Part shown: positions 1-23,392 of the stretch, piece by piece
Layout: every line of letters starts with the position of its first letter
Numbering within the stretch: the first letter of the stretch is position 1
From: a phage
Direction: 5' to 3' (one strand)
Length of the DNA: 40,815 nt
Sequence record: NC_104876.1
Program-made: the position numbers and the translations under genes
The notes under the pieces: generated by a model
The model's database searches: none
What the model saw: only the letters and a program-made list of their open reading frames with translations
Told to the model about the DNA's origin: nothing

Positions 1-261
1 ATCGAACCGGTTATGATCGCCAAGTTCCGCAAAGCGTTCGGCGAGAGTGTTTACAGCTACGCCCATATAGGACACCTGCACCACCAAAAGATTGTAGAAA
101 GCCGTAACATGATTGTTGAGCAACACCGCACTCTCGCGGCTAAAGATGCATATGCCTCCCGCGGTGGGTGGATGTCGGGCCGCAGTGCAAATGTAATTAC
201 TTATAGCGCCGAATATGGTGAGGTCGCACGTTTAACTATTTCACCGGAGATGCTTGGATGA
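1..261 (+). CDS. Metallophosphoesterase (calcineurin-like), C-terminal part; in-frame continuation of the CDS that runs off the window at 40815
   Basis: Frame is open from nt 1 (IEPVMIAKF...). GHxH motif HIGHLH at nt 64-81 completes the DxH/GDxxD/GNHDE/GH motif series found at 39946-40815. Stop at 259-261 overlaps next start (ATGA). Confidence 0.55.
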   Translation: MEPVMIAKFRKAFGESVYSYAHIGHLHHQKIVESRNMIVEQHRTLAAKDAYASRGGWMSGRSANVITYSAEYGEVARLTISPEMLG

Positions 262-743
262 AAGATATTGTGATTTTCGATTTAGACGGGACATTGGCAG
301 ATGGTACTCATCGTTTACACCTGCTGCCGAAAGATAACTACGGCGAAACCTGGGCGTGGAAACCATTTAACATGGCGTGCAAAGACGATGCACCCATTAA
401 AGATAACATCGAACTGTGTAACGCCCTTAATCGTCGCTATGCCGTTATTATCTTAACAGGCCGTAGTGATGACGCGGAAAAAGAAACCAGAATGTGGTTG
501 CAGCGCCACCGCGTCGAATTTTATCAGTTAATCATGCGCAGCAAACACGACAACAGAAAAGACATCGTAATTAAAGAAGAGGTGTTGCGTGCTATTGGGC
601 CGGAGAGAATCTTGTGTGCATTCGACGACTCTCCAGCGGTAATAAAGCATTTCCGCGAACTCGGCATAACCACTCACGCAGTTACTGAATACGACTGTAA
701 CGGGAACTCTACACACTTAAAACCACATGGGAGTGATAAATAA
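258..743 (+). CDS. HAD-superfamily phosphatase (small, cap-less; polynucleotide 3'-phosphatase or 5'-nucleotidase type)
   Basis: HAD motifs I FDLDGTL, II IILTGRS, III conserved K, IV FDDSP. GGAG RBS 9 nt upstream. Start and stop both overlap neighbouring genes. Confidence 0.65.
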   Translation: MKDIVIFDLDGTLADGTHRLHLLPKDNYGETWAWKPFNMACKDDAPIKDNIELCNALNRRYAVIILTGRSDDAEKETRMWLQRHRVEFYQLIMRSKHDNRKDIVIKEEVLRAIGPERILCAFDDSPAVIKHFRELGITTHAVTEYDCNGNSTHLKPHGSDK

Positions 744-1297
744 TGGCTAAGGTAATTATTCTTAATGGTCCTGCGGGCTGCGGGAAAGACACACTTGCTA
801 GGGCGCTGGTAGAAATGGGCTTTGCGAAGGGTGTCGCCAGTTTCAAGAATCCGATGTTCAATATTGCTATGGCTGCGTTAGGCCAGGATGCTTACCGCGA
901 GTTTCTCGACGGCTACGACGACCGGGCGCGGAAAGAAAAGCCAGAGGGTTTCCTTAACGGGTTGTCTCGGCGTCAGTTCATGATTGCCATTTCCGAGCAA
1001 TTCATTAAACCGGTATTCGGTGATGATTATTTCGGTAAGTATCTTGCCGGAAACTTGCCCGACGGCGACGAAGTTTTTGTGGTGTCTGATGGCGGGTTCG
1101 CCAGCGAAGTAGCCCCTATCGTTGCCGCGGGGCATGATGTGAGAATCGTCCGCTTGCACAGAGACGGCCATACGTTTGAAGGGGACAGCCGCGGTTACCT
1201 GTACGATATTGATGGTGTAAAAGATTATGACACCTACATCATACCGGGTTACGTTAAATCGAACGCTATAGGCATTGCTTTAAGATTAGGTTTGTAA
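743..1297 (+). CDS. P-loop nucleotide kinase, dNMP-kinase-like (phage T4 gp1-like)
   Basis: Walker A GPAGCGKDT with the GKDT signature recalled for dNMP kinases; about 184 aa; TAATG overlap with upstream HAD gene; followed by hairpin terminator. Confidence 0.6.
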   Translation: MAKVIILNGPAGCGKDTLARALVEMGFAKGVASFKNPMFNIAMAALGQDAYREFLDGYDDRARKEKPEGFLNGLSRRQFMIAISEQFIKPVFGDDYFGKYLAGNLPDGDEVFVVSDGGFASEVAPIVAAGHDVRIVRLHRDGHTFEGDSRGYLYDIDGVKDYDTYIIPGYVKSNAIGIALRLGL

Positions 1298-1302
1298 GAA
1301 AA

Positions 1303-1320
1303 AGGCCCCAAACGGGGCCT
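1303..1320. terminator. Bidirectional intrinsic terminator (AGGCCCC-AAAC-GGGGCCT) between convergent kinase and tail tube genes
   Basis: 7-bp GC stem, 4-nt loop, T-runs on both strands (TAGTTTTATG on plus; TTTTTCTT on minus). Confidence 0.6.
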
Positions 1321-1325
1321 TAGTT

Positions 1326-2498
1326 TTATGCGTATGTGATACGCTGAATAACAATAGACGACTGGTACTGGTTGCCAGTAGCCTGGCCTTCAATAGACTG
1401 AGTGATTGACTCAGGTCCTCCAATCTCAGGTGTAACCGCGGTAAGTTCTGCACGTTTCAAGCTGAAAGACATAGCCCCGTTTACTCCCGCCAGAATAGAG
1501 TTAATCTCCACCTGCTGCTCGTTGATAAACTTCTGAATCATCGCCATGTCGTACAGCTTACCGGAGATGGAGAAGGTGTTAGCTGCTCGGCTACGCTCCA
1601 CAAACGCTACGTTAGTGTTGCCGAGTTCGAACTGTGCGGACGCGCTGTTGTCGTTGGTGATGGTCAGGCTGTCGCAACGCAACGGCGTAGAACCGTCGAA
1701 CACAGAAACATCGACCGAGGAGAATGGCTCGTCACCAAACGTAACAGAGGAGAAATCAGAACCAGACGGCTGCGTGGTGAGAATCTCCTGACTGCGACCG
1801 ATGAACGGGAAGCTGCCAGTTACCATAGCGTTAACAGCCTGTTCGATGGTAAAACCAGAAACTTCCACGCCTTTGGTTAGTGTGTACGCGTCAGTCCCGC
1901 CGCACTGGCCTTTGTACCAGGTGAGAATAGAGAACGTCTTGCACTGGCTTCCCGTTTCCAGTTTATCCCCTGTCTTAGCGGCGGTAGTTACTGTCTCTGT
2001 GGTCAGGGTATGCTGGATACCCGCCCCGGTCACTACCCGCGCCTCTACTGCAGTTACGATAAACGGTTTTGCGTTGTCACCGGTTAAGCCGGTAAACGCA
2101 ATCAGGTCGCCCACTTCAACGCCGTCAGAAATAAAGCTACCTTCGGCACGGGTAAAGGTCTTGCCTGCAGGCGCGACGGTAATTGATAGCCCGGTCAGAG
2201 AACTACCGGATTGCCATGTAGAGCCTAAAGCACCCGCCAGCCAGTCGTCCTGGCTTTTCGAGCTAAGCTCAATAGCGTATTCTCCGCTAACCTGCTTGTT
2301 ACCGGTGCGGATTGACGTAGTTTCACGGCTGCCGTCCAGTTCGTTGGAGGTCAGCGTGTCGCGGGTAATGGCAGGAACGCCACCTGTGTTACGCAATGGC
2401 GACCAGACCGGGTTAGTCGGTGTTACGCCAGGGGTAGTTTCTGCCACATAGAATTGCGCAGTATTCGCGCCCTTAAAAGGAGTTGTAGCCATATTCAC
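1326..2498 (-). CDS. Major tail (tube) protein, gpV-like
   Basis: N-terminus PFKGANTAQFYVAETTPG resembles the lambda gpV start (PVKGAGTTLWVY) as recalled; 390 aa; last gene of the head-neck operon; start overlaps upstream stop. Confidence 0.5.
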   Translation of the reverse strand: MNMATTPFKGANTAQFYVAETTPGVTPTNPVWSPLRNTGGVPAITRDTLTSNELDGSRETTSIRTGNKQVSGEYAIELSSKSQDDWLAGALGSTWQSGSSLTGLSITVAPAGKTFTRAEGSFISDGVEVGDLIAFTGLTGDNAKPFIVTAVEARVVTGAGIQHTLTTETVTTAAKTGDKLETGSQCKTFSILTWYKGQCGGTDAYTLTKGVEVSGFTIEQAVNAMVTGSFPFIGRSQEILTTQPSGSDFSSVTFGDEPFSSVDVSVFDGSTPLRCDSLTITNDNSASAQFELGNTNVAFVERSRAANTFSISGKLYDMAMIQKFINEQQVEINSILAGVNGAMSFSLKRAELTAVTPEIGGPESITQSIEGQATGNQYQSSIVIQRITYA

Positions 2499-2911
2499 AG
2501 CCTCTTGGTGAATGCAATAAAGTTAATTGACAATGGTCGTTTGGCCCATCCGTTTTCTACAATCAGCGGCCCCAGGCTAACCGATTGAACCTCGGCGCAG
2601 ATGTCGTTACGAGAAAATGACTTACCTGCTTTGAATGCCGTGTTAAGTAAGTCTGCCATTTTATTGATTGGCGCGCTACCTTTCACCGATGCGTAGTTAA
2701 TGTCGACCTGATAAACACCCGCGCGTTGTTCCGTGAAGAACAAATCTGCTTGCTCGGTATCCGCCAGTAACATGTAACTTGCCAGATATGGCGTATCGGT
2801 TGACGTCGGCGCGTCGATGTTTTCAAGCGCGACCTTGATGCCGTTGGCGGTTCCGAAGGCTACCAGCGGAACATCGAACGCTTTTGTTAAGTCCTCAAAG
2901 TAGCCCATCAT
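2495..2911 (-). CDS. Neck / tail completion protein (hypothetical)
   Basis: 138-aa ORF translationally coupled (4-nt overlaps) inside the structural operon between capsid and tail tube genes. Confidence 0.4.
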   Translation of the reverse strand: MMGYFEDLTKAFDVPLVAFGTANGIKVALENIDAPTSTDTPYLASYMLLADTEQADLFFTEQRAGVYQVDINYASVKGSAPINKMADLLNTAFKAGKSFSRNDICAEVQSVSLGPLIVENGWAKRPLSINFIAFTKRL

Positions 2912-3303
2912 TTCACCTTGTTGGCTTCTTCGTTAATGAGTTGCTGGAAGCGAGACACATTAGTCCTGACAACCCCGGCTGGCGCCTGTTGCGACCAACC
3001 ATACTCCAGCCGTTGCGCATACGGCAGATTATTTGTCAGCGTGAACTCATGCCAGTCAGCGGCTTTCAGCACGAAACTCGTAGCGTTTCCGGTTGCTGTG
3101 TTTCCTGATTTATCCGTAGCGTCCGTAATCCCGGAAGCAGGAGTACCGCCAGATGCCATCCAGTTCATACGAAAGCGGCCCGTGTCTACCGGACTCGCCT
3201 TTATAATAGCGGAAAACAGCTTGATAGACACCTGACGCATCACCTTCTCAGGGTTCTTCTTCGCCTTTTCCACGAACTTAGAGACATCGAGCGCGAAACT
3301 CAT
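2908..3303 (-). CDS. Head-tail connector protein (hypothetical)
   Basis: 131-aa ORF, overlapping start/stop with neighbours, in structural operon. Confidence 0.4.
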   Translation of the reverse strand: MSFALDVSKFVEKAKKNPEKVMRQVSIKLFSAIIKASPVDTGRFRMNWMASGGTPASGITDATDKSGNTATGNATSFVLKAADWHEFTLTNNLPYAQRLEYGWSQQAPAGVVRTNVSRFQQLINEEANKVK

Positions 3304-3659
3304 TTTCTCACCTGAATAAAGTACGCCACGACGTCATCGTTAACCATCTTCTTCTCAATAGCTACGATGGACCATTGCTCGCAGCCGAATTGCACCTTGT
3401 CTTCCATCTTCGGAACGACGCTGTAATCGGCTTTAACAATCATGTCGCCAGCCTGAATCGTCGTACCGTTTACCAGTCCCGCGTTTACCGGAACCGGAAC
3501 GGCCTTCAACGGCAACACTTCATCCGCAGACCAGACGTACTCACCGAGAACTTCATCCCATACTTTTGAACCAGCGCGAATCAGAGATACCGTGCTACCG
3601 AATTTGGTTAGCAGGCGCGTACCCACGCCTTGCATACGTTTACTGAAATCGGTGCTCAT
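3300..3659 (-). CDS. Hypothetical virion protein
   Basis: Track ORF 3300..3713; start moved to the internal ATG at 3659 (MSTDFSKR...), which abuts the stop of the upstream gene. Confidence 0.4.
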   Translation of the reverse strand: MSTDFSKRMQGVGTRLLTKFGSTVSLIRAGSKVWDEVLGEYVWSADEVLPLKAVPVPVNAGLVNGTTIQAGDMIVKADYSVVPKMEDKVQFGCEQWSIVAIEKKMVNDDVVAYFIQVRK

Positions 3660-3913
3660 TACGCTGCCTCCAGTCTCGAAATAACCAGTAGCGCGGACGG
3701 TGCTGTGCCCCATGCGGTTACGGTAGCGGCTTGTGCTATGGTCGACGCAGCACGGAGAACTTCAACCTCTTTAACACCAGGAGTGGTGTAAATAGGCGAG
3801 TCGGCCATCTGCGTAAGTACGCCACGCAATTTAGCTGGCGTAATTTGCCCGGTCGTGTTGTCAGGTAGCTCGGACCCGATTAGCGTAAATATCTCTGTTT
3901 TAGTCTTCGCCAT
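3659..3913 (-). CDS. Hypothetical head-tail joining protein
   Basis: 84-aa ORF in structural operon. Confidence 0.35.
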   Translation of the reverse strand: MAKTKTEIFTLIGSELPDNTTGQITPAKLRGVLTQMADSPIYTTPGVKEVEVLRAASTIAQAATVTAWGTAPSALLVISRLEAA

Positions 3914-3915
3914 TT

Positions 3916-4428
3916 TTAACCCCGGTACACATTAAATGAGAAGCCATTGTTAAGACCGCCGCACAGTAACGGGCGTAATGCGTCGTCCGCAGCGGTAATA
4001 GCGGTTGTGGCGCCACTGTTGCCGTTGTTGAAGTATGTCACTGTCACAGCACCCTCAACACGCTCAGTCTGCACGGAACGCCCATCTGAGTTAGCCCGAA
4101 CATCAGTACCCGCACCATACGTAACCGCAGCGATTACTTGTGCCCGGATTAACTGCGACGGGATAACATTATCCGCTACGGTGAAGCCGTTTAGTGTTGT
4201 TCCTGTACGTGGGTACGCCAGAGACTGTTCAGCGGATACGCGACGCCCGCACATCTGAGGTTCTGCAAGCCCGACATAAGTAGCCCCGTTGCGCAAGGCC
4301 ACCTCTGCGGCGGTATCGTCCGCGGGCAACTCCAGTCCGTAATTAGCCGCTAACGCGCGGGCGTCGGCCAGACTAACGTAACTGTCGGCATCAGGTACTA
4401 TCGACCCATCTTCCACGATTAGCGGCAT
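3916..4428 (-). CDS. Hypothetical virion protein (possibly head-tail adaptor or decoration)
   Basis: 170-aa ORF directly downstream of the capsid gene region. Confidence 0.4.
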   Translation of the reverse strand: MPLIVEDGSIVPDADSYVSLADARALAANYGLELPADDTAAEVALRNGATYVGLAEPQMCGRRVSAEQSLAYPRTGTTLNGFTVADNVIPSQLIRAQVIAAVTYGAGTDVRANSDGRSVQTERVEGAVTVTYFNNGNSGATTAITAADDALRPLLCGGLNNGFSFNVYRG

Positions 4429-4620
4429 AAATTATTCCTCTGATTTCGCCCGGCGCTGGCGGCGTGGTGTCTCTTCTTTAGCCGATTCTACCACGGTGCC
4501 TTCTGGTGCGAAACGAGCATCTACCACACGGAACCCCTGACGGTTGTACTCCCGCTTCTGTTCTACGGTAATAGGCATAGGTACGTATTTAATTTCCACT
4601 TTAATTTCTCCTAGTAAAAA

Positions 4621-4634
4621 GGGGCCGTAGCCCC
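4621..4634 (-). terminator. Intrinsic terminator after the major capsid gene (GGGGC-CGTA-GCCCC)
   Basis: GC hairpin followed by a T5 run on the minus strand (plus-strand AAAAA at 4616-4620), immediately 3' of the capsid gene. Confidence 0.5.
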
Positions 4635-4656
4635 TTTGTTTTTACCATCAACCGTA

Positions 4657-5625
4657 TTACAGGTCCGCGTCGGCGATTGCCAGAGTACCGAGAGTGTGCT
4701 TGTTCTCGGCAACAGCTTTGTCCCAGTTGGTCGCGGTGAACAGTTCTGCGTCCAGCGGAGATTTACCGCCGTTGGCGACATCCCAGCTATAGCCTTTCAG
4801 TTTCAGGCCGAAGCTGTAATCTGCCTGCCAGGTGGTCTGGATGCGGGTGTTACCGTTTCTGGTATCAATGTTGCTGATAATGTCAGAAGCATTATCAACG
4901 ATGATGCCGTTTGCAACTACGGACAGGACCTTAGTCTTGTTCGGAGTACCGGCCTCGTACAGCGCAGGAATGTCAGAGATTACGTAACGCTTGCCGAGAA
5001 CATCGACAACCATAACGTTACCAGCAACGAACAGCTGGTTTGCGTTAGTCAGCGCTTTATCTACCAGCGTGTGGTAAGCAGCACCGGTCATGATGTCGGT
5101 AATCAGCAGCTGAGACTGGTCGCCGAATTTAGCGTGGCTGTTGTTCAGCACGTTCAGGGACAGACCCACGGTTGCAGATACGTCGTTAACCAGCGCGGCC
5201 TGACCAGATACCGCCGCAACAGCTGCGCCAACAGCGGTGTTGAGCTGGTCTGCTAACAGCGCATCGGAGAAGCCTTCGGAAATAGCACGAATCGCGCTTG
5301 CCGGGTCTTCGTTAAGCCAGGTCATTTGCGCAGGCTCGAACAGTACCGGTCCGAAGCCGCCAGCGACTTTAACGCCTACATGCTCGCCCTGAGTCAGCGC
5401 GGTAGCTGCCTGAGACGCGATATCGGCGTAACGGTCAACGCGGCGTTTAGCGGAGGCAATCTGGTTAAAGAAAGACTCACGGGAGAAGTCACCGCGCCAT
5501 GAAGCGGTAGACAGTACAATTGCGCCACCGGAGGCTGCGTTAAACTGGTCAGTTTTCTGGCCAAGCAGTTCGATAGTGGTACCGACGATATCGTCGTTAT
5601 AAACCTTCATATCTGACAGAGACAT
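4657..5625 (-). CDS. Major capsid protein
   Basis: 322-aa ORF following the scaffold gene, with its own downstream terminator; position and size typical of a major capsid gene. No family-level motif verified. Confidence 0.55.
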   Translation of the reverse strand: MSLSDMKVYNDDIVGTTIELLGQKTDQFNAASGGAIVLSTASWRGDFSRESFFNQIASAKRRVDRYADIASQAATALTQGEHVGVKVAGGFGPVLFEPAQMTWLNEDPASAIRAISEGFSDALLADQLNTAVGAAVAAVSGQAALVNDVSATVGLSLNVLNNSHAKFGDQSQLLITDIMTGAAYHTLVDKALTNANQLFVAGNVMVVDVLGKRYVISDIPALYEAGTPNKTKVLSVVANGIIVDNASDIISNIDTRNGNTRIQTTWQADYSFGLKLKGYSWDVANGGKSPLDAELFTATNWDKAVAENKHTLGTLAIADADL

Positions 5626-5631
5626 ATTCTG

Positions 5632-6258
5632 TTATCCTCGTTTGCCGTATTTGGCGTTAAGTTTTTGCTGGATTACGTCCGCACCACCGGCCCCGCCAGT
5701 AGAATTTTTGTTACCGGAAGCCCCGCCGCCGGTTGCTGCATCTGCTTTAATCAGATGCGAAAATGCTTTGTGCTCACGCAGATACTTTTTAAATTGCTCT
5801 GCGTCGGTGGTGATGACATTACCGTCTGCACCAGTGAACTTGGTAACAACGTCATCGCCGTCGAACTCGGCCTTGACCATCATAGCGATGATATCCGCTG
5901 CGCTCTCATCAATCAACATGCCAGACAACTGGCTGATAACTGATTTACGTTCTGCGCCGAGGATACGCTCCGCCATTTTGCTAATCTTACCGTCTTTCTC
6001 GGCGAGTACTGGCTCATACTGACTGCGCAACGTTTTCTCGAATGCCTCAAGTTCGCCGTTCTGTTTTGCGCGTTCCTGTTCGGCTTTCAGCTTCGCATCT
6101 GCGGCTTCTTTAGCGGCAGCGGCAGCAGCTTTCTTTTCAGACAAGAGTTTCTCGTTGTTAGCTTTAAGACCTGATACCAGCGCGTCAACTTCTTCTTTGG
6201 TAAACGTGGTCTTAGTCTCTTGTTGTTCGATAGTTTCGTCTTTCACTTCTTCGCTCAT
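5632..6258 (-). CDS. Scaffolding protein
   Basis: Ala/Lys/Glu-rich helical protein (KAAAAAAKEAADAKLKAEQERAK) immediately upstream of the capsid gene. Start set to ATG at 6258 (MSEEVKDE) with a GGGGG RBS; track start 6309 has no RBS. Confidence 0.5.
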   Translation of the reverse strand: MSEEVKDETIEQQETKTTFTKEEVDALVSGLKANNEKLLSEKKAAAAAAKEAADAKLKAEQERAKQNGELEAFEKTLRSQYEPVLAEKDGKISKMAERILGAERKSVISQLSGMLIDESAADIIAMMVKAEFDGDDVVTKFTGADGNVITTDAEQFKKYLREHKAFSHLIKADAATGGGASGNKNSTGGAGGADVIQQKLNAKYGKRG

Positions 6259-6337
6259 CAGTATGCCCCCTGGACGTTGGAATCCGGGCCACCCGGATTT
6301 ACATGTCAAGAATAAATTATTCCAACATACAAGGCAA

Positions 6338-6601
6338 CTATTCCAGAATATTCCTCACGTAATCCTGCAACATGAACACTTTCAGACGCAGTTGCCGCAC
6401 ACATTCGGCGTTCTGAACGTCGATAGCTAAATCCTCGTCAGCGTCGCTACTTGGCAGTGCCAGTTTGCACGGCGGCTGCATCATCGTCGTATCCGGGGAT
6501 GGAATTGGCGTTTGCGACGGCGCGGGACTTGAGCTGCACGCGCTCAGGGTCAAAAGTGCACACGCTGCGGCCAGGCGTTTTAATGTACTTAACGACTTCA
6601 C
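6338..6601 (-). CDS. Outer-membrane spanin (Rz1-like lipoprotein)
   Basis: Signal peptide with lipobox LTLSAC followed by a Pro-rich segment. Starts inside the Rz-like gene in another frame and extends beyond it. Confidence 0.5.
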   Translation of the reverse strand: MKSLSTLKRLAAACALLTLSACSSSPAPSQTPIPSPDTTMMQPPCKLALPSSDADEDLAIDVQNAECVRQLRLKVFMLQDYVRNILE

Positions 6602-6833
6602 GGGTGATTACCTCTGATTTCGTCTTGCCTTCGTTATCAGCGGCTGCGGCCTTCGATTCATCCTGCTGCTGCCGTTGTGTTTTCTTAGCTAACTCAGCCT
6701 GTGCTTTCTGCTGTTGTTGCGAAACGAGATTCGCCCGGCCTCCGTTCCAGCCGCTGCGATACTGGTAGATGCCGTGTGCGTAAGCCAGGATGATGAAACA
6801 TGCTCCCGCTACGACAGTTGCTTTAAGATTCAT
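6447..6833 (-). CDS. Inner-membrane spanin (Rz-like)
   Basis: N-terminal TM helix (VVAGACFIILAYAHGIY), Gln/Lys-rich coiled-coil region, overlapping lipoprotein ORF embedded in alternate frame. Confidence 0.5.
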   Translation of the reverse strand: MNLKATVVAGACFIILAYAHGIYQYRSGWNGGRANLVSQQQQKAQAELAKKTQRQQQDESKAAAADNEGKTKSEVITREVVKYIKTPGRSVCTFDPERVQLKSRAVANANSIPGYDDDAAAVQTGTAK

Positions 6834-7152
6834 GTTTCCCCTTTCTCGATAAGTAAAGCCCCGCCTTAAAGCGGGGCGCTAGTCCTTATCATTTAAACAT
6901 AGAAACGGCGTAATCTCAGTAAACCAGTTACTTTTTACACAAGCAATAGAGTATGGCCCTTCCGAACGCGTCAGCGCAACTACACTCGGACTTAACGTCC
7001 GACTCCGTTACCTGCCGCGCCGCGGTCGCTTGTTCATACTTCACAAGCTCAGGTGGAGCTTAGCACATTTTTGGTGAAAAGTCAACTATTCGAATAGTTT
7101 ATTCCAACATTTACAATTGAGTGGAATAACTGGAATAATCACAGGCACTAAA

Positions 7153-7170
7153 AAGCCCCTTTCGGGGCTT
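7153..7170 (-). terminator. Intrinsic terminator (AGCCCC-TTTC-GGGGCT) after the Ig-like protein gene
   Basis: GC hairpin followed by TTTTT on the minus strand. The same 18-nt hairpin recurs at 8722-8739. Confidence 0.55.
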
Positions 7171-7174
7171 CAGT

Positions 7175-7636
7175 TTATTCTGGCTTAGTAACCTTCGCCG
7201 CTTTACTGACGGCCTCTACCCCATCGGCATCGGTGACTTTAACGAAGTATTCACCGACTGCATTAACCGTCAGAGACAAAGCCTCTTCGGGTGCGTTTAC
7301 CACTTCCTTACCGTCTTTGTACCAGGTCAGAGTATACGGTGCTTTGCCTGCCTTAACTCCGACAGTGATAGTTGCGCTGCCGTCCGCCAGTTCAGTGTCT
7401 TTCGGTTGCACAGAGAAATACACGTCACCGGCGTCCGCCAGATACGGAATCTCATAAAGCATGCCCGCCGCGGGTAGGGAAATACCGGTTTTATCTGCAA
7501 ACGGCATATCGTCTACAGGTGTACCTAGTACACTTTCGTCCCCAATAGACACCACGTTCTCGCCGGAGCCGGACACGCGAGCAAACTGGACAACGCGACG
7601 CGAAGGTACGTCAGTTACTTTGAAAAAGCCCATCAT
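7175..7636 (-). CDS. Ig-like domain virion protein (possible decoration protein)
   Basis: C-terminal Ig-like signature (ATITVGVKAGKAPYTLTWYKDGKEV...GEYFVKVTDADG); 153 aa. Confidence 0.45.
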   Translation of the reverse strand: MMGFFKVTDVPSRRVVQFARVSGSGENVVSIGDESVLGTPVDDMPFADKTGISLPAAGMLYEIPYLADAGDVYFSVQPKDTELADGSATITVGVKAGKAPYTLTWYKDGKEVVNAPEEALSLTVNAVGEYFVKVTDADGVEAVSKAAKVTKPE

Positions 7637-8712
7637 TATTCCCCTTTCAGATAATCAGCAACACGTTTATCGAGTTCCGCCATCTGCTTAAGCGTGAGCG
7701 GATTCCCGAAACCATCTACAGATATTACGCGAAACTCTTCCGGCGATATACCGCTGTTACGGAAAATCTTACCTCGCACCGGGCCGAGGGCCTGGTCCTG
7801 AAACCACGCCGTTTGTTGTTTAAGGAACTCGTAGTAAGTGGTGTCTGCGCTTACCTGGGTTCCACCTTCTGCGCCCTTAGCTGCGCGTTTTGCGCCCTTA
7901 TCGAGGAAGTCGAACTCTGAACTGATTACCGGTGCCGTGGTACTTCTGCACCCAAAATGGGCCGGAGGCATCGGCCCTTTACCGATTTCCCACATCATTC
8001 CGTCTCTGGCCCTGCAAATCGTGCTGGTACGGCTGTCCAGCGTTGATACCCACTCGTACCTATCGATGATGTCGTCGTTCTGGCGGTACGTCTCGTTGCG
8101 GGCTTCGTTGGACACGTGAGACAGCGCAGTACGGATTACTGTAGCTGCATGTTTCTCTGATACGTCAGCCAGCCCGCCTTTACCGACTACTTCTTTAACA
8201 ATCTGCCGTGTTGTCTTGCCCTGAACAAAGCCCATCTTAACGCCGGTGACCAGGCGCGCCACCTCCGTTTCACCCCAACCTGACATCAGTTTAGTGAAAT
8301 CAACTGGCTTGCCACTCAATGATAATGGCTGAAACTCAGCAGCGGCCCACACCTGTTCGGCGGTGGGCGTAACAAATTCCGCATCTACGTTGGCGGTCAG
8401 GGTCTTTACGTTCCACTCAGCTTCATACACCGCCAGTTCCTTGAGGTCTTCTGCCAGCTTTGTTTGCCAGTCACCAGTAAGTCCTGTCAGTGCTTCTTCA
8501 AGGTCACGTAACAGTTTATTCAGTCGCGCAGTGCTACGACCGTCGTCGCCGAATAACAGCACCTGCCGTTTGATTTCATCCCGCATCTCCTGAATGAACG
8601 GTGCGAGGTCTTTCACCTCACCGGATGCGGTGCGTTGCAGCCATATCTGATGGCTGATGAGGGATGTAAGTAAGCTCATAGATAAACCCTGTTGCGCTAA
8701 AGTTAATAGCAT
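7636..8712 (-). CDS. Head morphogenesis protein (minor capsid protein)
   Basis: 358-aa ORF immediately downstream of the portal gene, the usual position of this family; call is by synteny only. Confidence 0.45.
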   Translation of the reverse strand: MLLTLAQQGLSMSLLTSLISHQIWLQRTASGEVKDLAPFIQEMRDEIKRQVLLFGDDGRSTARLNKLLRDLEEALTGLTGDWQTKLAEDLKELAVYEAEWNVKTLTANVDAEFVTPTAEQVWAAAEFQPLSLSGKPVDFTKLMSGWGETEVARLVTGVKMGFVQGKTTRQIVKEVVGKGGLADVSEKHAATVIRTALSHVSNEARNETYRQNDDIIDRYEWVSTLDSRTSTICRARDGMMWEIGKGPMPPAHFGCRSTTAPVISSEFDFLDKGAKRAAKGAEGGTQVSADTTYYEFLKQQTAWFQDQALGPVRGKIFRNSGISPEEFRVISVDGFGNPLTLKQMAELDKRVADYLKGE

Positions 8713-8721
8713 ACTACAAGA

Positions 8722-8739
8722 AAGCCCCTTTCGGGGCTA
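8722..8739 (-). terminator. Intrinsic terminator or attenuator between portal and head morphogenesis genes
   Basis: AGCCCC-TTTC-GGGGCT hairpin followed by TTTCTTGT on the minus strand. Confidence 0.45.
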
Positions 8740-8748
8740 TATGTGAAC

Positions 8749-10242
8749 TTACTGCTGGGTGGGGTCTTTTTGCTGCGCCGACTGCGGAATCTCCCCCGCT
8801 ACCTGAGTAACCGCACCAATCGGCAGAGGTGCGTCCTCGATAGCATTCTGAATGTCCTCGTCCGTCCAGTCAGTTACACCCGCCTTGCGCAATGCAGCAT
8901 AGTAAGCGGTCGCTGGTAACAGGCCTGCGTTTATATCAGCCATCCACTGCGCACGGTCCTGAGCGGTCATCGGTTGCAGGAAGAACTCCATATTCAGCTT
9001 AAACTCAATCTCAGTACCGTCACTAAGCCCAAGCATGCCTGCAACCCATTTCAGCGCATCGGTATACGCCATGCTTACGTTACGTGCGATTGTCGCCATA
9101 ACGGACGTGTCGGCGCCGCGTTGCAGTCGGGCGGATTCAGCGGTAATTTGCTGTGTCGGGGTAATAAGCTGCGCACCAATCTGGATGGCCTGATTCTCTT
9201 TATCCAGCATGTTTTGTTTGGCGAGGTTGTTCTCTCCCGCCTGAACCAGAAACGCATTGCCGCCGTAACCGATGTTATGGCCAGAACGTGACCCCATACG
9301 CACTCCGTGAGGGTTAGCTTCTTTCCACTGCGCCATGCTCATATTCTCACCGGGGGCGATGAACAGAGTAGGCTGGCCCACAACGAAGCTGGACTCTTCA
9401 TTGTCCGCGCTGTTGCGGAAGTGCCCGATATTAAGTTCAGCCAACGGCAGCAAAGGTGCATCGTCAGGGGTTGGGTCGTTATTTCCCGCGCCGATGAACG
9501 TGAACGGAATCACCCCGACCGGAATATTACCGAGTTTCGGGAATATTTCGATATAGCCACCTTCCGTCAGTGCACCTTTCTGGTTAAAGCGGTACAGACG
9601 CTGGCGATACTGGCCTTCGAAAATATCAAGGACGCGGTATTGCTCGCCGTAGTTGGGGCTGAACTCATCCGCGCCATCGGTGTACTCGTATTCCTCACGC
9701 AATACAACCATAACCACACGATTAACAGACCCGACGCGCTGGAGACGCCAGTTGATGATGTTCTCTGCGGTGTAGAAAGCGATTGTTGGGTTTAGTAAAC
9801 CCTCGTTTTGCTCTGCCATGGTAGCTACTTCTACCGCGGGGGCGTCAACCAGCAAACCACCGCGACCAACAGCATCAATCTCATACAGAGTATCCTGTGC
9901 GTGCTGCCACAGGCCAACGCCCGACCCGTCACAGTTAGTGGTCAGGTATTCCATCTGAGACGGAATAATCATCTCGGGGTCTTTGCGCATTACGCTGCCG
10001 ACCATGCCGGAAAGCGTTCGCTTGGTGAAGTTGTAGCAAATTGCCCCCGCTTCATATTCGGCCTGACGCTGGCGACCATACACCGGGTCTGGCTCATTCT
10101 TGCCGACGTCACGTAGATATGATGTCAGGTCACCAGAAAGTGCGTGCCGCACCTTCTGCCACTTAGGGAAATACTCCTCGTACTGGCGGTGGCAGGTTTT
10201 AACGTTCTGCCCTTGCCCTGAGTTAATGTTTGCGGAAACCAT
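8749..10242 (-). CDS. Portal protein
   Basis: 497-aa ORF directly downstream of the large terminase gene; size and position typical of a portal. Confidence 0.6.
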   Translation of the reverse strand: MVSANINSGQGQNVKTCHRQYEEYFPKWQKVRHALSGDLTSYLRDVGKNEPDPVYGRQRQAEYEAGAICYNFTKRTLSGMVGSVMRKDPEMIIPSQMEYLTTNCDGSGVGLWQHAQDTLYEIDAVGRGGLLVDAPAVEVATMAEQNEGLLNPTIAFYTAENIINWRLQRVGSVNRVVMVVLREEYEYTDGADEFSPNYGEQYRVLDIFEGQYRQRLYRFNQKGALTEGGYIEIFPKLGNIPVGVIPFTFIGAGNNDPTPDDAPLLPLAELNIGHFRNSADNEESSFVVGQPTLFIAPGENMSMAQWKEANPHGVRMGSRSGHNIGYGGNAFLVQAGENNLAKQNMLDKENQAIQIGAQLITPTQQITAESARLQRGADTSVMATIARNVSMAYTDALKWVAGMLGLSDGTEIEFKLNMEFFLQPMTAQDRAQWMADINAGLLPATAYYAALRKAGVTDWTDEDIQNAIEDAPLPIGAVTQVAGEIPQSAQQKDPTQQ

Positions 10243-10255
10243 TTGTTGTGTCCTC

Positions 10256-11506
10256 TTAAAGTGCGAAAGTCACCGGGATGTTGATTACTGGTTTAACCAC
10301 CGGCATCTCGTAAACTACAGGATAGCCTAGAGCATCCGCCATATGGTCAATGATGCCGTCTTTAGCTGGCTCTCCGTTATCGTCGTATGCCTGCTGCTCC
10401 AGCGTCTTCGCTATCTCAGGGCATAAGTGGTCGTTAATCCACAGTTTACCTTTTTCCAGTGCGGTATTCACGGCTAAAACACGGTCTTTAACCGGAGGGT
10501 TGGCGGATTTAGCGCGAACATCGAAACCTGCCTGCTGGAGTAACGCAATATCTGAGATTGACGCCGAGTTGGTCTTGCGGTTCTTGCCGCTGGCGTCCGG
10601 GTAAACGACTATGCGGTGGCCCTGCGACTTCCACTTCTCAGTAATTACGCGCACGGTATCCGGCGTATCAAACAGACCTTTCAGTTCTGCCACCGCGTGC
10701 CAGCCGTCTTTACGTTGCACATACACGGCGCTGGCGTTCTTCGTAACGTTGAAGTCCTGCCCGATGTACAACGTGTCGCCCGGTTGAATTACCTCTTTGC
10801 TGCGGTGCTTACGGCGGTCATATGCGTAATACACGCTGCCGGAGGTAAGGTTGACGAACTCACCATTCAGATACGCGTTAATCAACTGCGCCGGATAAGT
10901 CTCGGTCAGCGAACTAATGTAGTCAGGTGGCAGGAATCGCGCGTTCTCGTGTGTAGAAGCCTGCACCATCGAGTAACTCGGCGTCGGGTTCTCTTTGAAC
11001 TTGGCGTAGACGAACTTGAACCCTTCCGGTGTCGTGGTGACAGAGATGTGGTTAATTACGCCAGGAATAACAAGACGCATACGGGCCACAATTTTGTTCC
11101 ACGCCAGTTCAGCTTTCTCGCGGCTCAATACATCCAGCTCATCCACGACTGCCGCAGCGATTTTGAAGCCGACGATAGAGCCTGGGTTATCCATCGAACG
11201 GCAGATAACTGTACCGAGCACCGTCTTACCGCGAGTAACCACGACTTCTTTGTCGCCAGATTTAACCAGCACATCGAGGCCGAGCAGGTTAGCGGCTTCC
11301 TCAAATGTCGGGTAGAAGATGTCACGGATAGCCGGGTATGTCGGGCCGAAGTAACCCAGGCGCGTACCTGGATGCTTGAGCATAAACGTAAGCAGGTCAA
11401 GGCAGCCAACAAATGTCTTTCCGCTGCCGAAGCCGCCGACATATGCCTTATATTTGTTATCACAATTCAGGAACAGCGCCTGCGGTGCGGATAGCTGAAT
11501 ACTCAT
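10256..11506 (-). CDS. terL: Terminase large subunit
   Basis: Walker A GGFGSGKT near the N-terminus, 416 aa, overlaps the upstream small-subunit candidate, precedes the portal gene. Confidence 0.75.
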   Translation of the reverse strand: MSIQLSAPQALFLNCDNKYKAYVGGFGSGKTFVGCLDLLTFMLKHPGTRLGYFGPTYPAIRDIFYPTFEEAANLLGLDVLVKSGDKEVVVTRGKTVLGTVICRSMDNPGSIVGFKIAAAVVDELDVLSREKAELAWNKIVARMRLVIPGVINHISVTTTPEGFKFVYAKFKENPTPSYSMVQASTHENARFLPPDYISSLTETYPAQLINAYLNGEFVNLTSGSVYYAYDRRKHRSKEVIQPGDTLYIGQDFNVTKNASAVYVQRKDGWHAVAELKGLFDTPDTVRVITEKWKSQGHRIVVYPDASGKNRKTNSASISDIALLQQAGFDVRAKSANPPVKDRVLAVNTALEKGKLWINDHLCPEIAKTLEQQAYDDNGEPAKDGIIDHMADALGYPVVYEMPVVKPVINIPVTFAL

Positions 11507-12087
11507 TCCTCTACCTCACCCATATTCGTTGTTACAATTTTACCTACAGGCTCTGCAACACTAAAAATAATCTCAGTCGGTGCCGTTTCTTCGGTGGATT
11601 CGACTGGTTTCTCTTTACCGAGGCCCAGTTTAGCTGCGGCGAACGTAGCAGAGATGCCCGCGGCCCCTGTCTCAGTGAAGTACGCCTCTTCCAGTGCCTG
11701 TGCTGTCTCGTATGCTTCTGCAAATGCGGGAATCTCACGCAGCCATAGCTTAATAATAGGGATAGTGACGCCGATGTGTAAGGCAAAGCGGGCCAGTGAC
11801 GGAGGTTTATCCTGAATCAGCGGGCGTTCGTCACCCTTAGACGTAGGCACGAGTTCCCACGACGTGCGGTCGAAGAACTCGATTAGCGCGTCGCAATAAT
11901 CCGGGTCCCACAGTGCGGCGGAATTACGGGATGATTGATAAAGGCTCTGTTTACCGCGCGGTCGTTTACGTCGGCGGTTTGCGCTAACAGCTTCTTCATG
12001 TGCAGCTTGCACCACCTCTGGCGATGGCTGCTTGAGTTTCAGCTTCATATAATCCCCTTGCATATGCGTCTGACCATCAGAGCGCAC
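11503..12087 (-). CDS. Terminase small subunit (putative)
   Basis: Basic N-terminal region, 4-nt overlap with the large terminase gene. Probable start at internal ATG 12046 (MKLKLKQ). Preceded by a promoter-like TATATAAT. Confidence 0.4.
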   Translation of the reverse strand: MRSDGQTHMQGDYMKLKLKQPSPEVVQAAHEEAVSANRRRKRPRGKQSLYQSSRNSAALWDPDYCDALIEFFDRTSWELVPTSKGDERPLIQDKPPSLARFALHIGVTIPIIKLWLREIPAFAEAYETAQALEEAYFTETGAAGISATFAAAKLGLGKEKPVESTEETAPTEIIFSVAEPVGKIVTTNMGEVEE

Positions 12088-12147
12088 CAGACGCGCCCTA
12101 CGCGTCTAAAGGGATTATATAAGGTGATTGGGCAGGATGTACAGAAA

Positions 12148-12165
12148 AGCCCTCTACCGAGGGCT
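12148..12165 (-). terminator. Putative intrinsic terminator upstream of the terminase genes
   Basis: AGCCCTC-TACC-GAGGGCT hairpin followed by TTTCTGT on the minus strand. Confidence 0.35.
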
Positions 12166-12422
12166 TGTATCAGTTGTATAGGCCGTGGCGTGGTGCTCTT
12201 TTACCGTCGCCGCCGTAATGGTCGTTAGCTACAGCGATAGCCCAGGCGTTAGGAATGATTAGTAGTCTCATTTGAATAAACAATCCTTGGCAAGCTGACG
12301 GTATAGTTTAGCCGCGTAACTCTCGGCCTGACCTTTGCGCCGAAATATTTTCCCATTAACTGAATACTTGTTTAACTCTGGCTCGTAGCAAACTTGGTTG
12401 TCGATGAACTCCAGAATACTAA

Positions 12423-12659
12423 TCATTCCCCACTCTCCTCTTTAGCAATACGTTGCTCTGTTTTAGTGATACCCCGGCGCGTGAATAACACCGGACTTGT
12501 CTTAACGTGCGTCATGAGACGATTGTTATAAATTACGTGACGCTCGCAGTTCACGTCTTTGCTGTACTTGGCAATCGTCATCTCGCAGATACCGGTTTGT
12601 CGGCAAGTCTCCGACATATTTCCGTACTCTTCAATCAGTTTAGGGATGCTGGTAATCAA
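12423..12659 (-). CDS. Hypothetical small protein, possible HTH DNA-binding
   Basis: 78-aa ORF; ATGA overlap with a downstream 52-aa ORF (12271-12426); member of a chain of coupled small ORFs. Confidence 0.35.
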   Translation of the reverse strand: MITSIPKLIEEYGNMSETCRQTGICEMTIAKYSKDVNCERHVIYNNRLMTHVKTSPVLFTRRGITKTEQRIAKEESGE

Positions 12660-12937
12660 TTTGTCTCTCCTTTAGTGACGGTAATATCTTTCTTGTTAAG
12701 GTCTACAAAAATAGTATGTGCACCGCTTGTGTAAATGTGGCACCGCGGGATGAGGCTTTCTGTTGTCCATAAAAACTCGTACGGACGGTCGGCGCGCGCC
12801 CTTCTAACCTCAAACTTGCCGTATTTAACAATAACTCCGTAGTTATGTACCGCGGAGGGGTTGCAAAATCTACAATAAACGGCTTCTTCTATAGCGGATT
12901 CAATATCAGTGAATCTCGCGGAAACAGTACGTGCCAT
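12656..12937 (-). CDS. Hypothetical protein
   Basis: 93-aa ORF, 4-nt overlap with the downstream gene. Confidence 0.35.
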   Translation of the reverse strand: MARTVSARFTDIESAIEEAVYCRFCNPSAVHNYGVIVKYGKFEVRRARADRPYEFLWTTESLIPRCHIYTSGAHTIFVDLNKKDITVTKGETN

Positions 12938-12940
12938 TAT

Positions 12941-13204
12941 TTACAACCCCACATACCCGATGCCCCACATAACTAACATCCCAACCGCCACACCAATCAG
13001 AATCGATACTGTGGTATTAGTCCGCACCCTCTGGCTACGCAAAGTTTCGGCGTTCTCCAGAATGTCACGAACACGCGTTAAGTGTGCAATCTCCAGTTTC
13101 GCGGCGGTTAGTTCCTGAGTTGCTTTTGAATACTTACCATTAATCTTATCAAGCGCCTTCTTAAGGTCTTTGTTGTTCTTCTTGAGTTGTTCAATCTGCT
13201 CCAT
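12941..13204 (-). CDS. Hypothetical coiled-coil protein with C-terminal transmembrane anchor
   Basis: N-terminal coiled coil (EQIEQLKKNNKDLKKALDKI), C-terminal hydrophobic helix (VSILIGVAVGMLVMWGIGYVGL). Confidence 0.4.
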   Translation of the reverse strand: MEQIEQLKKNNKDLKKALDKINGKYSKATQELTAAKLEIAHLTRVRDILENAETLRSQRVRTNTTVSILIGVAVGMLVMWGIGYVGL

Positions 13205-13206
13205 AA

Positions 13207-13936: not shown

Positions 13937-13960
13937 CTAGTCATTACAGAAAATAGATAA

Positions 13961-13988: not shown

Positions 13989-14054
13989 ATAAAACTGGAG
14001 AGCAGAGGGATGGAGCAGGAGGTGATTTAAGTATCGTCGGATTAGTCTTAGGTG

Positions 14055-23388: not shown

Positions 23389-23392
23389 AGTG

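What the first reader, a model, noticed from the sequence alone, without database searches (positions are those of the whole stretch)
1..261. Window ends join in frame inside one gene: the window is probably a complete, circularly represented genome
The ORF starting at 39946 has no stop before 40815 and ends on a complete codon. Position 1 starts in the same frame as the 13..261 ORF with no stop in nt 1-12. The metallophosphoesterase motif series begun at the window end (DxH, GDxxD, GNHDE, GH) is completed by GHxH (HIGHLH, nt 64-81) at the window start. Gene content is also a complete phage set.
Basis: seen in the sequence. Interest (0 to 1): 0.4.

Follow-up and report, generated by a model that had tools for sequence, protein, structure and literature searches.

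The report
Complete phage genome cut mid-gene
The 40.8-kb window is one complete copy of an ordinary E. coli K1-capsule phage genome (genus Kagunavirus) whose circular assembly was opened at an arbitrary point inside a gene, so the split gene is a bookkeeping artefact and not a biological feature.

Summary
The ORF 39946..40815 (290 whole codons, no stop) and nt 1..261 join in frame into a 1131-nt, 376-codon gene.

The join is genuine. In phage fKuEco01 (MT711525.1) window base 40815 aligns to position 11523 and window base 1 to position 11522, which are adjacent bases. The synthetic junction is contiguous in 146 deposited phage genomes, in an independent metagenome contig and in a circular 44-kb record labelled as a plasmid.

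The orthologous genes are also exactly 1131 nt. Sixty-three of 69 fKuEco01 proteins recur in the same circular order. There is no terminal repeat.

The joined protein is an N-terminal helix-turn-helix domain plus a metallophosphoesterase. Its invariant catalytic residues lie on both sides of the break, and a confident structure model matches only metallophosphoesterase folds.

The window is therefore a complete, arbitrarily linearised genome of a Kagunavirus (Guernseyvirinae) with a K1 endosialidase tailspike.

Physical ends cannot be read from sequence alone. The terminase is 99.8% identical to that of K1G, and the literature points to headful packaging, meaning permuted, terminally redundant virion DNA with no fixed ends.

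This is ordinary and of low interest. At most the phage is a new species-level member of a known genus (85-89% similarity to the nearest records).

The parts
39946..40815 (+). 5' part (codons 1-290) of the split gene. It holds an N-terminal helix-turn-helix domain (about aa 8-44), a beta-hairpin/linker region, and metallophosphoesterase motifs I-IV (D130xH132, G178D179xxH182, GN236H237D, H282GH).
   Evidence: open frame, RBS; weak GerE hit at aa 14-45; invariant residues; HTH families found in relatives; three helices at 8-44 in the model.
1..261 (+). 3' part (codons 291-376 plus the TGA stop) of the same gene, carrying the last metallophosphoesterase motif G314-H315-x-H317 (nt 64-81).
   Evidence: phrog_704 match covers aa 4-375 in one stretch; window 1 aligns to MT711525.1 position 11522, adjacent to 11523 which aligns to window 40815.
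39549..39715 (.). Divergent intergenic region between the tail operon (- strand, tail assembly chaperone start at 39548) and the + strand operon that contains the split gene. It carries one copy (39671-39687) of the repeated promoter-associated motif GAATAGTNNNCTATTAT.
   Evidence: (I1, I2, I7).
39716..39907 (+). Superinfection-immunity-like small membrane protein, the first gene of the operon.
   Evidence: PF14373, E 4e-13; 93.7% to KE1_020.
258..743 (+). HAD-type polynucleotide-kinase-phosphatase-like phosphatase. Its ATG overlaps the stop codon of the split gene (ATGA at 258-261).
   Evidence: overlap; PF25109 HAD_PNKP, E 7e-20; phrog_415; 100% to KE1_018.
743..1297 (+). P-loop (deoxy)nucleotide kinase-like protein, the last gene of the operon.
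   Evidence: weak AAA_18 hit; phrog_139, E 4e-46; 100% to KE1_017.
1302..1321 (.). Bidirectional intrinsic terminator hairpin AAGGCCCC-AAAC-GGGGCCTT closing the operon. The transcription unit therefore runs from about 39.65 kb, across the window ends, to 1.3 kb.
   Evidence: 8-bp stem with 6 GC pairs, found on both strands; D2, I4; a near-identical copy lies at 29590-29616.
10256..12087 (-). Terminase genes: small subunit 11503..12087 and large subunit 10256..11506. These are the determinants of packaging type and the expected neighbourhood of any pac site. They lie about 10 kb from the window ends.
   Evidence: Terminase_6N, 6C and 3; phrog_2, phrog_3064; TerL 99.5% and TerS 98.3% to fKuEco01; TerL 99.8% to K1G.
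1..40815 (.). One complete genome unit of a Kagunavirus, in reverse orientation and rotated relative to MT711525.1. Structural and lysis genes are on the - strand (1326-17177 and 29614-39548). Replication genes are on the + strand (17631-29582). The K1 endosialidase tailspike is at 29614-32568 (-).

Best explanation
[quoted passage not shown] The sequence closed on itself during assembly, as happens for phages whose virion DNA is circularly permuted and terminally redundant, or when replicating concatemers are sequenced. It was then written out as a linear string from an arbitrary position. That position falls after codon 290 of a 376-codon gene for a helix-turn-helix plus metallophosphoesterase protein. 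This gene sits in a four-gene operon (immunity protein, metallophosphoesterase, HAD phosphatase, nucleotide kinase) whose promoter region is at the right end of the window and whose terminator is at the left end. The split gene is therefore an artefact of representation. Nothing is missing or duplicated at the join. Shown here: the join, the completeness, the taxonomic placement and the fold of the protein. Inferred: the phage packages by a headful (pac) mechanism, so virions carry slightly more than 40.8 kb with permuted ends, and the window ends are not physical ends.
For: Join:
- Window 22144..40815 aligns to MT711525.1 30189..11523, and window 1..3660 aligns to 11522..7863, so the end bases are adjacent.
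- Single alignments of 7,660 nt (97.6%, fKuEco01) and 7,735 nt (95.9%, P AB-2017) cross the join.
- Relative to K1G there is only 1 mismatch from -249 to +44 around the join, so no mosaic or chimera boundary coincides with it.
- The synthetic 354-nt junction is contiguous in 146 of 149 matching phage records, at up to 98.6% identity.
- It is also contiguous in Logan contig SRR29490230_882 and in the circular 44,086-bp record CP088689.1.
- All nine close homologues whose sequences I read (97-99% identical) run straight through the join. Of the 120 best homologues, 115 are 376 aa long and five carry an N-terminal extension.
- In the 50%-identity library, 4,579 cluster representatives match, typically in one stretch covering about aa 25-375.

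Completeness:
- 63 of 69 fKuEco01 proteins are found in the same circular order. These include TerS, TerL, portal, MuF-like head protein, major capsid, connectors, tail tube, chaperone, tape measure, J-like protein, tailspike, holins, endolysin, spanin, DNA polymerase, helicases and nuclease. The six missing are hypothetical proteins of 32-82 aa.
- The window is 40,815 bp, against 40,825 bp for fKuEco01.
- There is no terminal repeat, exact or approximate.

Protein:
- phrog_704 matches end to end, E 2e-166.
- Invariant metal-ligand motifs lie on both sides of the break.
- The AlphaFold2 model has mean pLDDT 90.1, with 95-98 around residue 290.
- The top 50 Foldseek hits in PDB are all calcineurin-like metallophosphoesterases (Rv0805, Mre11, PolD DP1 and others), and 132 hits reach E<=0.001.

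Operon: an ATGA stop/start overlap at 258-261, a terminator at 1302-1321 and a promoter-associated motif at 39671-39687.

Packaging:
- TerL has the Terminase_6N/6C domains and is 99.8% identical to K1G TerL.
- K1G/K1H and their sibling phages cluster with headful packagers in a TerL phylogeny, and those genomes were closed into circles by read mapping (PMC5582158).
- PhageTerm found no termini in the Kagunavirus fBC-Eco01 (PMC9825357).
- The fKuEco01 TerS, 98.3% identical to the window's, is annotated as similar to P22 gp3 with HHpred probability 99.56.
- The K1G and fKuEco01 records are deposited as circular.
- Deposited relatives start at many different positions and in both orientations.
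Against: - No reads are available, so closure of this particular assembly is not directly observed.
- The exact 376-aa protein is absent from the 15-billion-protein collection, and the exact 42-nt junction is absent from IMG/VR. Contiguity is therefore shown in relatives up to 98.6% identical, not in an independent copy of this very genome.
- Headful packaging is inferred. TerL and TerS have no detectable sequence match to any solved terminase. One Kagunavirus paper describes packaging generically as cos-type while also reporting that no termini were found.
- Pfam metallophosphoesterase hits are below the curated cut-offs: 20.1 against 27 bits, and 18.2 against 21.5 bits.
Confidence: 0.95

Rival explanations
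1. The genome is complete and the join is real, but the phage has fixed physical ends (cos sites or short exact direct terminal repeats) located elsewhere, for example near the terminase genes. The assembler collapsed or bridged these ends. In that case the virion DNA is not permuted.
For: Concatemer-derived reads let assemblers close cos and DTR genomes too. PhageTerm fails with tagmentation libraries (PMC9409062), so 'no termini found' is weak negative evidence. One Kagunavirus paper describes the terminase as recognising a cos site (PMC9825357), although only as generic text.
Against: K1G-type TerL, 99.8% identical to the window's, groups with headful packagers (PMC5582158). TerS is annotated as P22 gp3-like. 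TerL belongs to the T4-type Terminase_6N/6C families. No candidate long direct repeat exists anywhere in the window; the longest family is 55 nt at 73% identity.
Confidence: 0.12
2. The window is a fragment of a larger molecule, such as a prophage in a host chromosome or a longer contig, and the in-frame match of its two ends is a coincidence.
For: None beyond the fact that windows are usually arbitrary cuts.
Against: The end bases are adjacent in a relative. The joined gene has exactly the ortholog length. The junction does not occur in any of 5,426 complete E. coli genomes. No integrase or host gene lies at either end. The window length equals one genome unit of the genus.
Confidence: 0.01
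3. The circle is an assembly chimera of two co-occurring Kagunavirus strains, joined at the window ends through a shared repeat or conserved gene. No single phage would then carry this exact sequence.
For: The window is mosaic. Its first 3.7 kb is 99.5% identical to fKuEco01 while the rest is about 94-96%. The helicase-primase gene matches P AB-2017 (about 90% nt) but is only 31% identical at protein level to fKuEco01. Many Kagunaviruses co-occur in sewage-type samples.
Against: The change in mismatch density lies 75-250 nt to the right of the join, not at it, and differs by reference phage. Relative to K1G the stretch from -249 to +44 is nearly identical. The same kind of mosaicism is seen between isolated, plaque-purified Kagunaviruses. 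A chimera elsewhere in the circle cannot be excluded but would not affect the finding.
Confidence: 0.04

Closest known systems
Escherichia phage vB_EcoS_fKuEco01 (MT711525.1, 40,825 bp, deposited as circular) and Escherichia phage P AB-2017 (KY295898.1, 41,184 bp); genus Kagunavirus, type phage K1G (GU196277.1)
   Same: Gene order around the whole circle is the same. 63 of 69 fKuEco01 proteins are present. The tailspike is the same K1 endosialidase (99.1% aa). TerL is 99.5-99.8% identical. The Imm-MPE-HAD-kinase operon is the same, with an MPE gene of exactly 1131 nt.
   Different: Only 85% (fKuEco01) and 89% (P AB-2017) of window bases are identical. This is below the 95% usually used for a phage species, so the window is a distinct mosaic. 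It has a different helicase-primase allele from fKuEco01 and lacks the HNH endonuclease gene of P AB-2017. The written start point and orientation also differ.
Circular contigs from short-read assemblies of circularly permuted phages, with genes spanning the contig extremities (described for example in PMC9409062 and PMC5582158)
   Same: The genome closes on itself, is opened at an arbitrary position, and a gene is split between the two ends. The encapsidated DNA is nevertheless linear.
   Different: Here the k-mer overlap that SPAdes leaves at contig ends has already been removed: no terminal repeat of 5 nt or more remains. The join is exact to the base.
P22-type headful (pac) DNA packaging
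   Same: There is a small terminase annotated as gp3-like and a large terminase of the T4/P22-type ATPase-nuclease family. No fixed termini have been detected in a congener. Records of relatives are deposited as circular.
   Different: No pac site has been mapped in any Kagunavirus that I could find. TerL and TerS are too diverged for phmmer to match any solved terminase. Permutation and terminal redundancy are not measured here.
Calcineurin-like metallophosphoesterases of the nuclease branch (Mre11/SbcD, archaeal PolD DP1) and Rv0805-type phosphodiesterases
   Same: The motif set is the same (DxH, GDxxH, GNHD/E, H, GHxH) and the fold is the same, with Foldseek probability 1.00 and E from 4e-9 to 1e-6.
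   Different: Sequence identity is 10-17%. An N-terminal helix-turn-helix domain and a beta-hairpin region are added. No Rad50/SbcC partner gene is present in the genome. Fold alone does not separate the subfamily: Rv0805, Mre11 and DP1 all score alike.

Membership tests
Complete, circularly represented phage genome (arbitrary linearisation) | The two ends join without loss or duplication of bases | tested here: met
   Window 40815 and window 1 align to adjacent bases 11523 and 11522 of MT711525.1. The joined ORF is 1131 nt, the ortholog length. Single alignments of 7.6 kb cross the join.
Complete, circularly represented phage genome (arbitrary linearisation) | The junction sequence is contiguous in independent genomes | tested here: met
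   It is contiguous in 146 phage records, in Logan contig L003 and in CP088689.1. The exact junction of this strain was not found elsewhere.
Complete, circularly represented phage genome (arbitrary linearisation) | All essential modules are present and the circular gene order matches complete relatives | tested here: met
   63 of 69 reference proteins are in the same order, and the missing ones are hypotheticals of 32-82 aa. Pfam and PHROG hits identify terminase, portal, capsid, tail tube and tailspike.
Complete, circularly represented phage genome (arbitrary linearisation) | Reads or read pairs bridge the join in the source data | not testable with these tools
   No reads are available.
Genus Kagunavirus (Guernseyvirinae) | At least about 70% nucleotide similarity over the genome to members of the genus | tested here: met
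   85% and 89% of window bases are identical to fKuEco01 and P AB-2017, both classified as Kagunavirus.
Genus Kagunavirus (Guernseyvirinae) | Siphovirus morphology and a virulent life cycle | not testable with these tools
   No integrase was found among the ORFs or in the annotated relatives. The junction is absent from 5,426 complete E. coli genomes. Morphology cannot be tested.
Headful (pac) packaging phages | Large terminase groups with experimentally characterised headful packagers | not tested
   This rests on the literature: the K1G/K1H clade lies next to headful phages (PMC5582158), and the window TerL is 99.8% identical to K1G. No tree was built here. TerL has the Terminase_6N/6C domains.
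Headful (pac) packaging phages | Virion DNA is circularly permuted and terminally redundant, with a pac fragment in digests | not testable with these tools
   This needs reads or wet-lab work. A congener gave no termini with PhageTerm (PMC9825357).
Calcineurin-like metallophosphoesterase superfamily (the split gene) | Conserved metal-ligand motifs DxH, GD, GNH(D/E), H and GHxH | tested here: met
   D130, H132, G178, D179, N236, H237, H282, G314 and H317 are invariant in 47 sequences at 31-49% identity. H182, D238, H284 and H315 are at least 90% conserved.
Calcineurin-like metallophosphoesterase superfamily (the split gene) | Metallophosphoesterase fold (as shared with the solved structures matched) | tested here: met
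   The model has pLDDT 90.1. All of the top 50 PDB matches are metallophosphoesterases at probability 1.00.
Calcineurin-like metallophosphoesterase superfamily (the split gene) | Score above the Pfam gathering threshold for PF00149 or PF12850 | tested here: not met
   The scores are 18.2 against 21.5 bits and 20.1 against 27 bits. Only 8 of 47 relatives hit PF00149 at E<=0.001. This is a divergent branch, and membership rests on motifs and fold.
Mre11/SbcD DNA-repair exonucleases (the label 'DNA repair exonuclease' used in PHROGs and RefSeq) | A partner Rad50/SbcC ATPase is encoded alongside | tested here: not met
   No such gene appears among the window ORFs or the annotated genes of fKuEco01 and P AB-2017. 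The neighbours are an immunity protein, a HAD phosphatase and a nucleotide kinase.
Mre11/SbcD DNA-repair exonucleases (the label 'DNA repair exonuclease' used in PHROGs and RefSeq) | Specific similarity to Mre11/SbcD above other metallophosphoesterases | tested here: inconclusive
   Foldseek ranks Rv0805 (4e-9), Mre11 (4e-8) and PolD DP1 (5e-8) almost equally. A profile search of PDB sequences gives only E of about 0.5 to Mre11/SbcD.

The most novel reading that the evidence does not exclude
The representation artefact itself leaves no room for novelty. The most novel reading not excluded concerns the operon that crosses the window ends. In this reading the helix-turn-helix plus metallophosphoesterase protein, the HAD polynucleotide-phosphatase-like protein and the P-loop kinase act together as a nucleic-acid end-processing module. 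It would play a role like that of T4 Pnkp, for example healing RNA or DNA ends broken by host anti-phage nucleases, with the DNA-binding domain targeting or auto-regulating it. This would replace the generic 'DNA repair exonuclease' label. Nothing here tests that idea. The HAD and kinase genes are dispensable in at least one relative (L003).
Probability: 0.12. Interest if true: 0.4.

Novelty: new member of a known kind. Interest (0 to 1): 0.08.

Why it matters
The value is practical only.
- The window can be treated as a complete genome.
- The two partial ORFs at its ends should be merged into one gene when annotating. Left unmerged, a 290-aa and an 82-aa fragment would each look like a truncated or orphan protein, as with PHROGs 20703 and 20762, which match only the N- or C-terminal part.
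- The window ends must not be read as biological termini. [quoted passage not shown]
- The phage itself is one more K1-capsule Kagunavirus, a group of interest for phage therapy and synthetic biology (PMC11990801).

Tried and rejected
- Exact 42-nt junction in IMG/VR viral contigs: no match.
- Exact joined protein in the 15-billion-protein collection: absent. No independent copy of this very strain was therefore found.
- Junction in 5,426 complete E. coli genomes: no match, which argues against a prophage or carried-phage origin.
- phmmer of TerS, TerL and the joined protein against PDB sequences, even at E<=10: only noise.
- Profile of 47 relatives against PDB sequences: only marginal GerE/LuxR and Mre11/SbcD hits, E 0.1-0.7. 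Fold comparison was needed instead.
- Terminal repeats, exact and approximate, between the first and last 3 kb: none.
- Large direct repeats anywhere in the window that could be a collapsed DTR: none.
- tRNA and Rfam scans: nothing.
- Literature searches for direct end-mapping of Kagunavirus or Jersey-like phages gave only indirect statements.
- I did not build a TerL tree against characterised packagers. I relied on the published one for K1G.
- I considered a chimeric join at the window ends and rejected it from the mismatch profile.

Full report
OBSERVATION

The ORF that starts at ATG 39946 is preceded by a GAGGA ribosome-binding site and runs for 290 whole codons to the last base of the window without a stop. 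Read from base 1 in phase 1, the sequence stays open until TGA at 259-261. The other two phases at each end are full of stops. Joined, the two pieces give 1131 nt, which is 376 codons plus the stop. The break lies after codon 290. The window has no terminal direct repeat of 5 nt or more, and no approximate one between its first and last 3 kb.

IS THE JOIN REAL?

A synthetic 354-nt junction (last 177 nt plus first 177 nt) was searched against 50,697 phage records. It matched 149 records, and in 146 of them one place covers at least 80% of the query as uninterrupted DNA, at up to 98.6% identity. All are Kagunavirus-type phages of Escherichia, Salmonella, Shigella, Raoultella and Klebsiella.

The alignment to Escherichia phage vB_EcoS_fKuEco01 (MT711525.1, 40,825 bp, deposited as circular) is decisive. 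Window 22144..40815 aligns to 30189..11523, and window 1..3660 aligns to 11522..7863. The last and first bases of the window are therefore neighbours in that genome.

With the window rotated, one alignment of 7,660 nt (97.6%) in fKuEco01 and one of 7,735 nt (95.9%) in P AB-2017 run straight across the join. The places where mismatch density changes lie 75-250 nt to the right of the join and differ between reference phages. Relative to the type phage K1G there is a single mismatch between -249 and +44. The join is therefore not a mosaic or chimera boundary.

The orthologous genes in fKuEco01 (KE1_019) and P AB-2017 (P_12) are also exactly 1131 nt and are 97.9% and 97.1% identical in protein. 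Contiguity is also seen in two further places. One is an independent metagenome-derived contig (Logan SRR29490230_882). The other is a circular 44,086-bp record from a closed E. coli genome that is labelled a plasmid but carries the same phage operon (CP088689.1).

IS IT COMPLETE?

Of the 69 annotated proteins of fKuEco01, 63 have a counterpart in the window in the same circular order. The junction gene is hit as one full-length 376-aa stretch when the window is extended circularly. The six proteins without a counterpart are hypotheticals of 32-82 aa in the variable early region.

Pfam and PHROG scans identify the following:
- large terminase (Terminase_6N/6C)
- small terminase (phrog_3064)
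- portal (phrog_145, DUF4055)
- MuF-like head protein
- major capsid protein (Gp13-like, E 1e-104)
- tail tube
- a full K1 endosialidase tailspike with its intramolecular chaperone

The window length (40,815 bp) lies at the low end of the genus range seen (40,766 to 45,805 bp). The window is not identical to any record: 85% of its bases are identical to fKuEco01 and 89% to P AB-2017. The helicase-primase allele resembles P AB-2017, while the structural genes resemble fKuEco01 and K1G. By the usual 95% criterion it would be a distinct species within Kagunavirus, relative to a collection dated August 2025.

THE SPLIT GENE

The joined protein matches phrog_704 ('DNA repair exonuclease') over residues 4-375 in one stretch, E 2e-166. 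Two other PHROGs (20703 and 20762) match only its N-terminal 195 or C-terminal 115 residues. Families built from fragments of this protein would look like this, though I did not examine their members.

Pfam metallophosphoesterase models hit below their curated cut-offs. The PF12850 hit does, however, span residues 226-326 and so crosses the break.

The family is large. It has 3,566 close homologues, nearly all 376 aa, and 4,579 representatives of 50%-identity clusters, typically 375-400 aa and matched in a single stretch.

In an alignment of 47 members at 31-49% identity, the invariant residues are D130, H132, G178, D179, T190, N236, H237, G274 and H282 before the break, and G314, H317 and G363 after it. 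This is the classical metal-binding set of calcineurin-like phosphoesterases.

An AlphaFold2 model built on this alignment has mean pLDDT 90.1, with 95-98 around the break. Its 50 best matches among solved structures are all metallophosphoesterases: Rv0805, Mre11, archaeal PolD DP1, purple acid phosphatase, GpdQ, YfcE and Vps29. The catalytic domain therefore needs both ends of the window.

Residues 8-44 form three helices. Relatives hit GerE, HTH_8, sigma-70 region 4 and other helix-turn-helix families there.

The label 'DNA repair exonuclease' is not established. No Rad50/SbcC partner is encoded, and fold scores do not separate Mre11 from phosphodiesterases.

CONTEXT

The gene is the second of four co-oriented genes:
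1. a superinfection-immunity-like protein (39716-39907)
2. the metallophosphoesterase (39946..261)
3. a HAD phosphatase of the polynucleotide kinase-phosphatase type (258-743), whose ATG overlaps the preceding stop as ATGA
4. a P-loop nucleotide kinase (743-1297)

A strong bidirectional terminator follows at 1302-1321. Upstream, the 167-bp gap that separates this operon from the divergent tail operon carries one copy of a motif, GAATAGTNNNCTATTAT. This motif occurs nine times in the window against 0.26 expected. Elsewhere it is embedded in TTGACA-N17-TATAGT promoters. A whole transcription unit therefore straddles the window ends, which is an independent sign that the ends are arbitrary.

PHYSICAL ENDS

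The indirect evidence is as follows:
- TerL is 99.8% identical to that of K1G.
- In a published TerL phylogeny, K1G, K1H and the three Smith-Huggins siphophages form a clade next to phages with headful packaging. Those genomes were closed into circles by read mapping (PMC5582158).
- PhageTerm found no obvious termini in the Kagunavirus fBC-Eco01 (PMC9825357).
- The fKuEco01 small terminase, 98.3% identical to the window's, is annotated as P22 gp3-like by HHpred.
- The K1G and fKuEco01 records are deposited as circular.
- Deposited relatives begin at many different positions and in both orientations.

I therefore infer pac-type headful packaging at about 0.8. Under that mechanism, virions hold a little more than one unit length, with permuted, terminally redundant ends. 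Any packaging start is expected near the terminase genes at about 10-12 kb, not at the window ends. A cos or DTR mechanism with ends elsewhere remains possible at about 0.1.

VERDICT

What is there is a complete, arbitrarily linearised Kagunavirus genome. The 'split gene' is a representation artefact of a well-known kind (compare PMC9409062). It matters for correct annotation and for not mistaking the window ends for termini, but it is not surprising. Interest is low.

Noticed in passing
window 6327, 13926, 15879, 17201, 20627, 20671, 23402, 26969, 39671 (17-nt sites): The partly palindromic motif GAATAGTNNNCTATTAT occurs 9 times (up to 2 mismatches) against 0.26 expected, and 0 of 100 shuffles reach 9. 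Three copies sit inside near-consensus TTGACA-N17-TATAGT promoters ahead of + strand replication genes (20648, 23379, 26946). Others lie in divergent intergenic regions at 15.9, 17.2 and 39.7 kb. This looks like a phage promoter/operator family, possibly bound by the DicA-like repressor (20382-20597) or one of the HTH proteins.
   Followed up: partly
window 39716-40815 plus 1-1321: The metallophosphoesterase gene is translationally coupled (ATGA overlap) to a HAD polynucleotide-phosphatase-like gene and a P-loop nucleotide kinase gene. Together these resemble the enzymatic parts of an end-healing system split into separate proteins. No ligase gene was noticed.
   Followed up: partly
L003 2177-2407 (Logan SRR29490230_882) versus window 258-1297: In this related contig the HAD phosphatase and kinase genes are absent. 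A 76-aa gene lies between the metallophosphoesterase gene and the tail tube gene, so that pair is an accessory cassette.
   Followed up: no
window 24158-24198 versus L002 (KY295898.1) 37493-37997: P AB-2017 carries an HNH endonuclease gene (P_57) between the DUF2815 gene and the DNA polymerase gene. The window and fKuEco01 lack it. This is a presence/absence pattern typical of a mobile homing endonuclease.
   Followed up: no
window 18122-20362: The helicase-primase is only 31% identical in protein to that of fKuEco01, but its DNA is about 90% identical to P AB-2017, while flanking modules show the opposite affinity. This is whole-gene allele replacement (mosaicism) within the genus.
   Followed up: partly
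L004 (CP088689.1, 44,086 bp, circular): A record deposited as E. coli plasmid pC16EC0033-2 (human blood isolate, South Korea) carries the Kagunavirus tail chaperone, immunity, metallophosphoesterase, HAD, kinase and tail tube genes in phage order. It is probably a phage genome carried along with or contaminating the culture, not a plasmid.
   Followed up: partly
window 1300-1329, 7150-7179, 8716-8738, 29588-29617: Near-identical GC-rich hairpin terminators (AAGGCCCC-loop-GGGGCCTT) recur at module boundaries. The copies at 1302-1321 and 29590-29616 are 87-89% alike and lie where convergent transcription units meet.
   Followed up: no
window 27210-28034 and 27298-27990: Two long ORFs overlap on the same strand in different frames. 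One is a C5 cytosine methyltransferase (274 aa). The other is an internal 230-aa ORF that relatives annotate as 'Mte8-like'. Both are annotated in fKuEco01.
   Followed up: no
window 64-81, 40714-40716 and 40303-40305 (residues I313, C257, G120 of the joined protein): The window's protein has I313 in the HIGHLH motif, C257 and G120. All nine close homologues whose sequences I read have V, R and D at these positions. These are private substitutions next to, but not in, the invariant metal ligands.
   Followed up: no
PHROG families 20703 and 20762: These two 'unknown function' PHROGs match only the N-terminal 195 aa or the C-terminal 115 aa of the metallophosphoesterase. They may have been built from gene fragments produced by the same kind of mid-gene linearisation or by frameshifts in other deposited genomes.
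   Followed up: no
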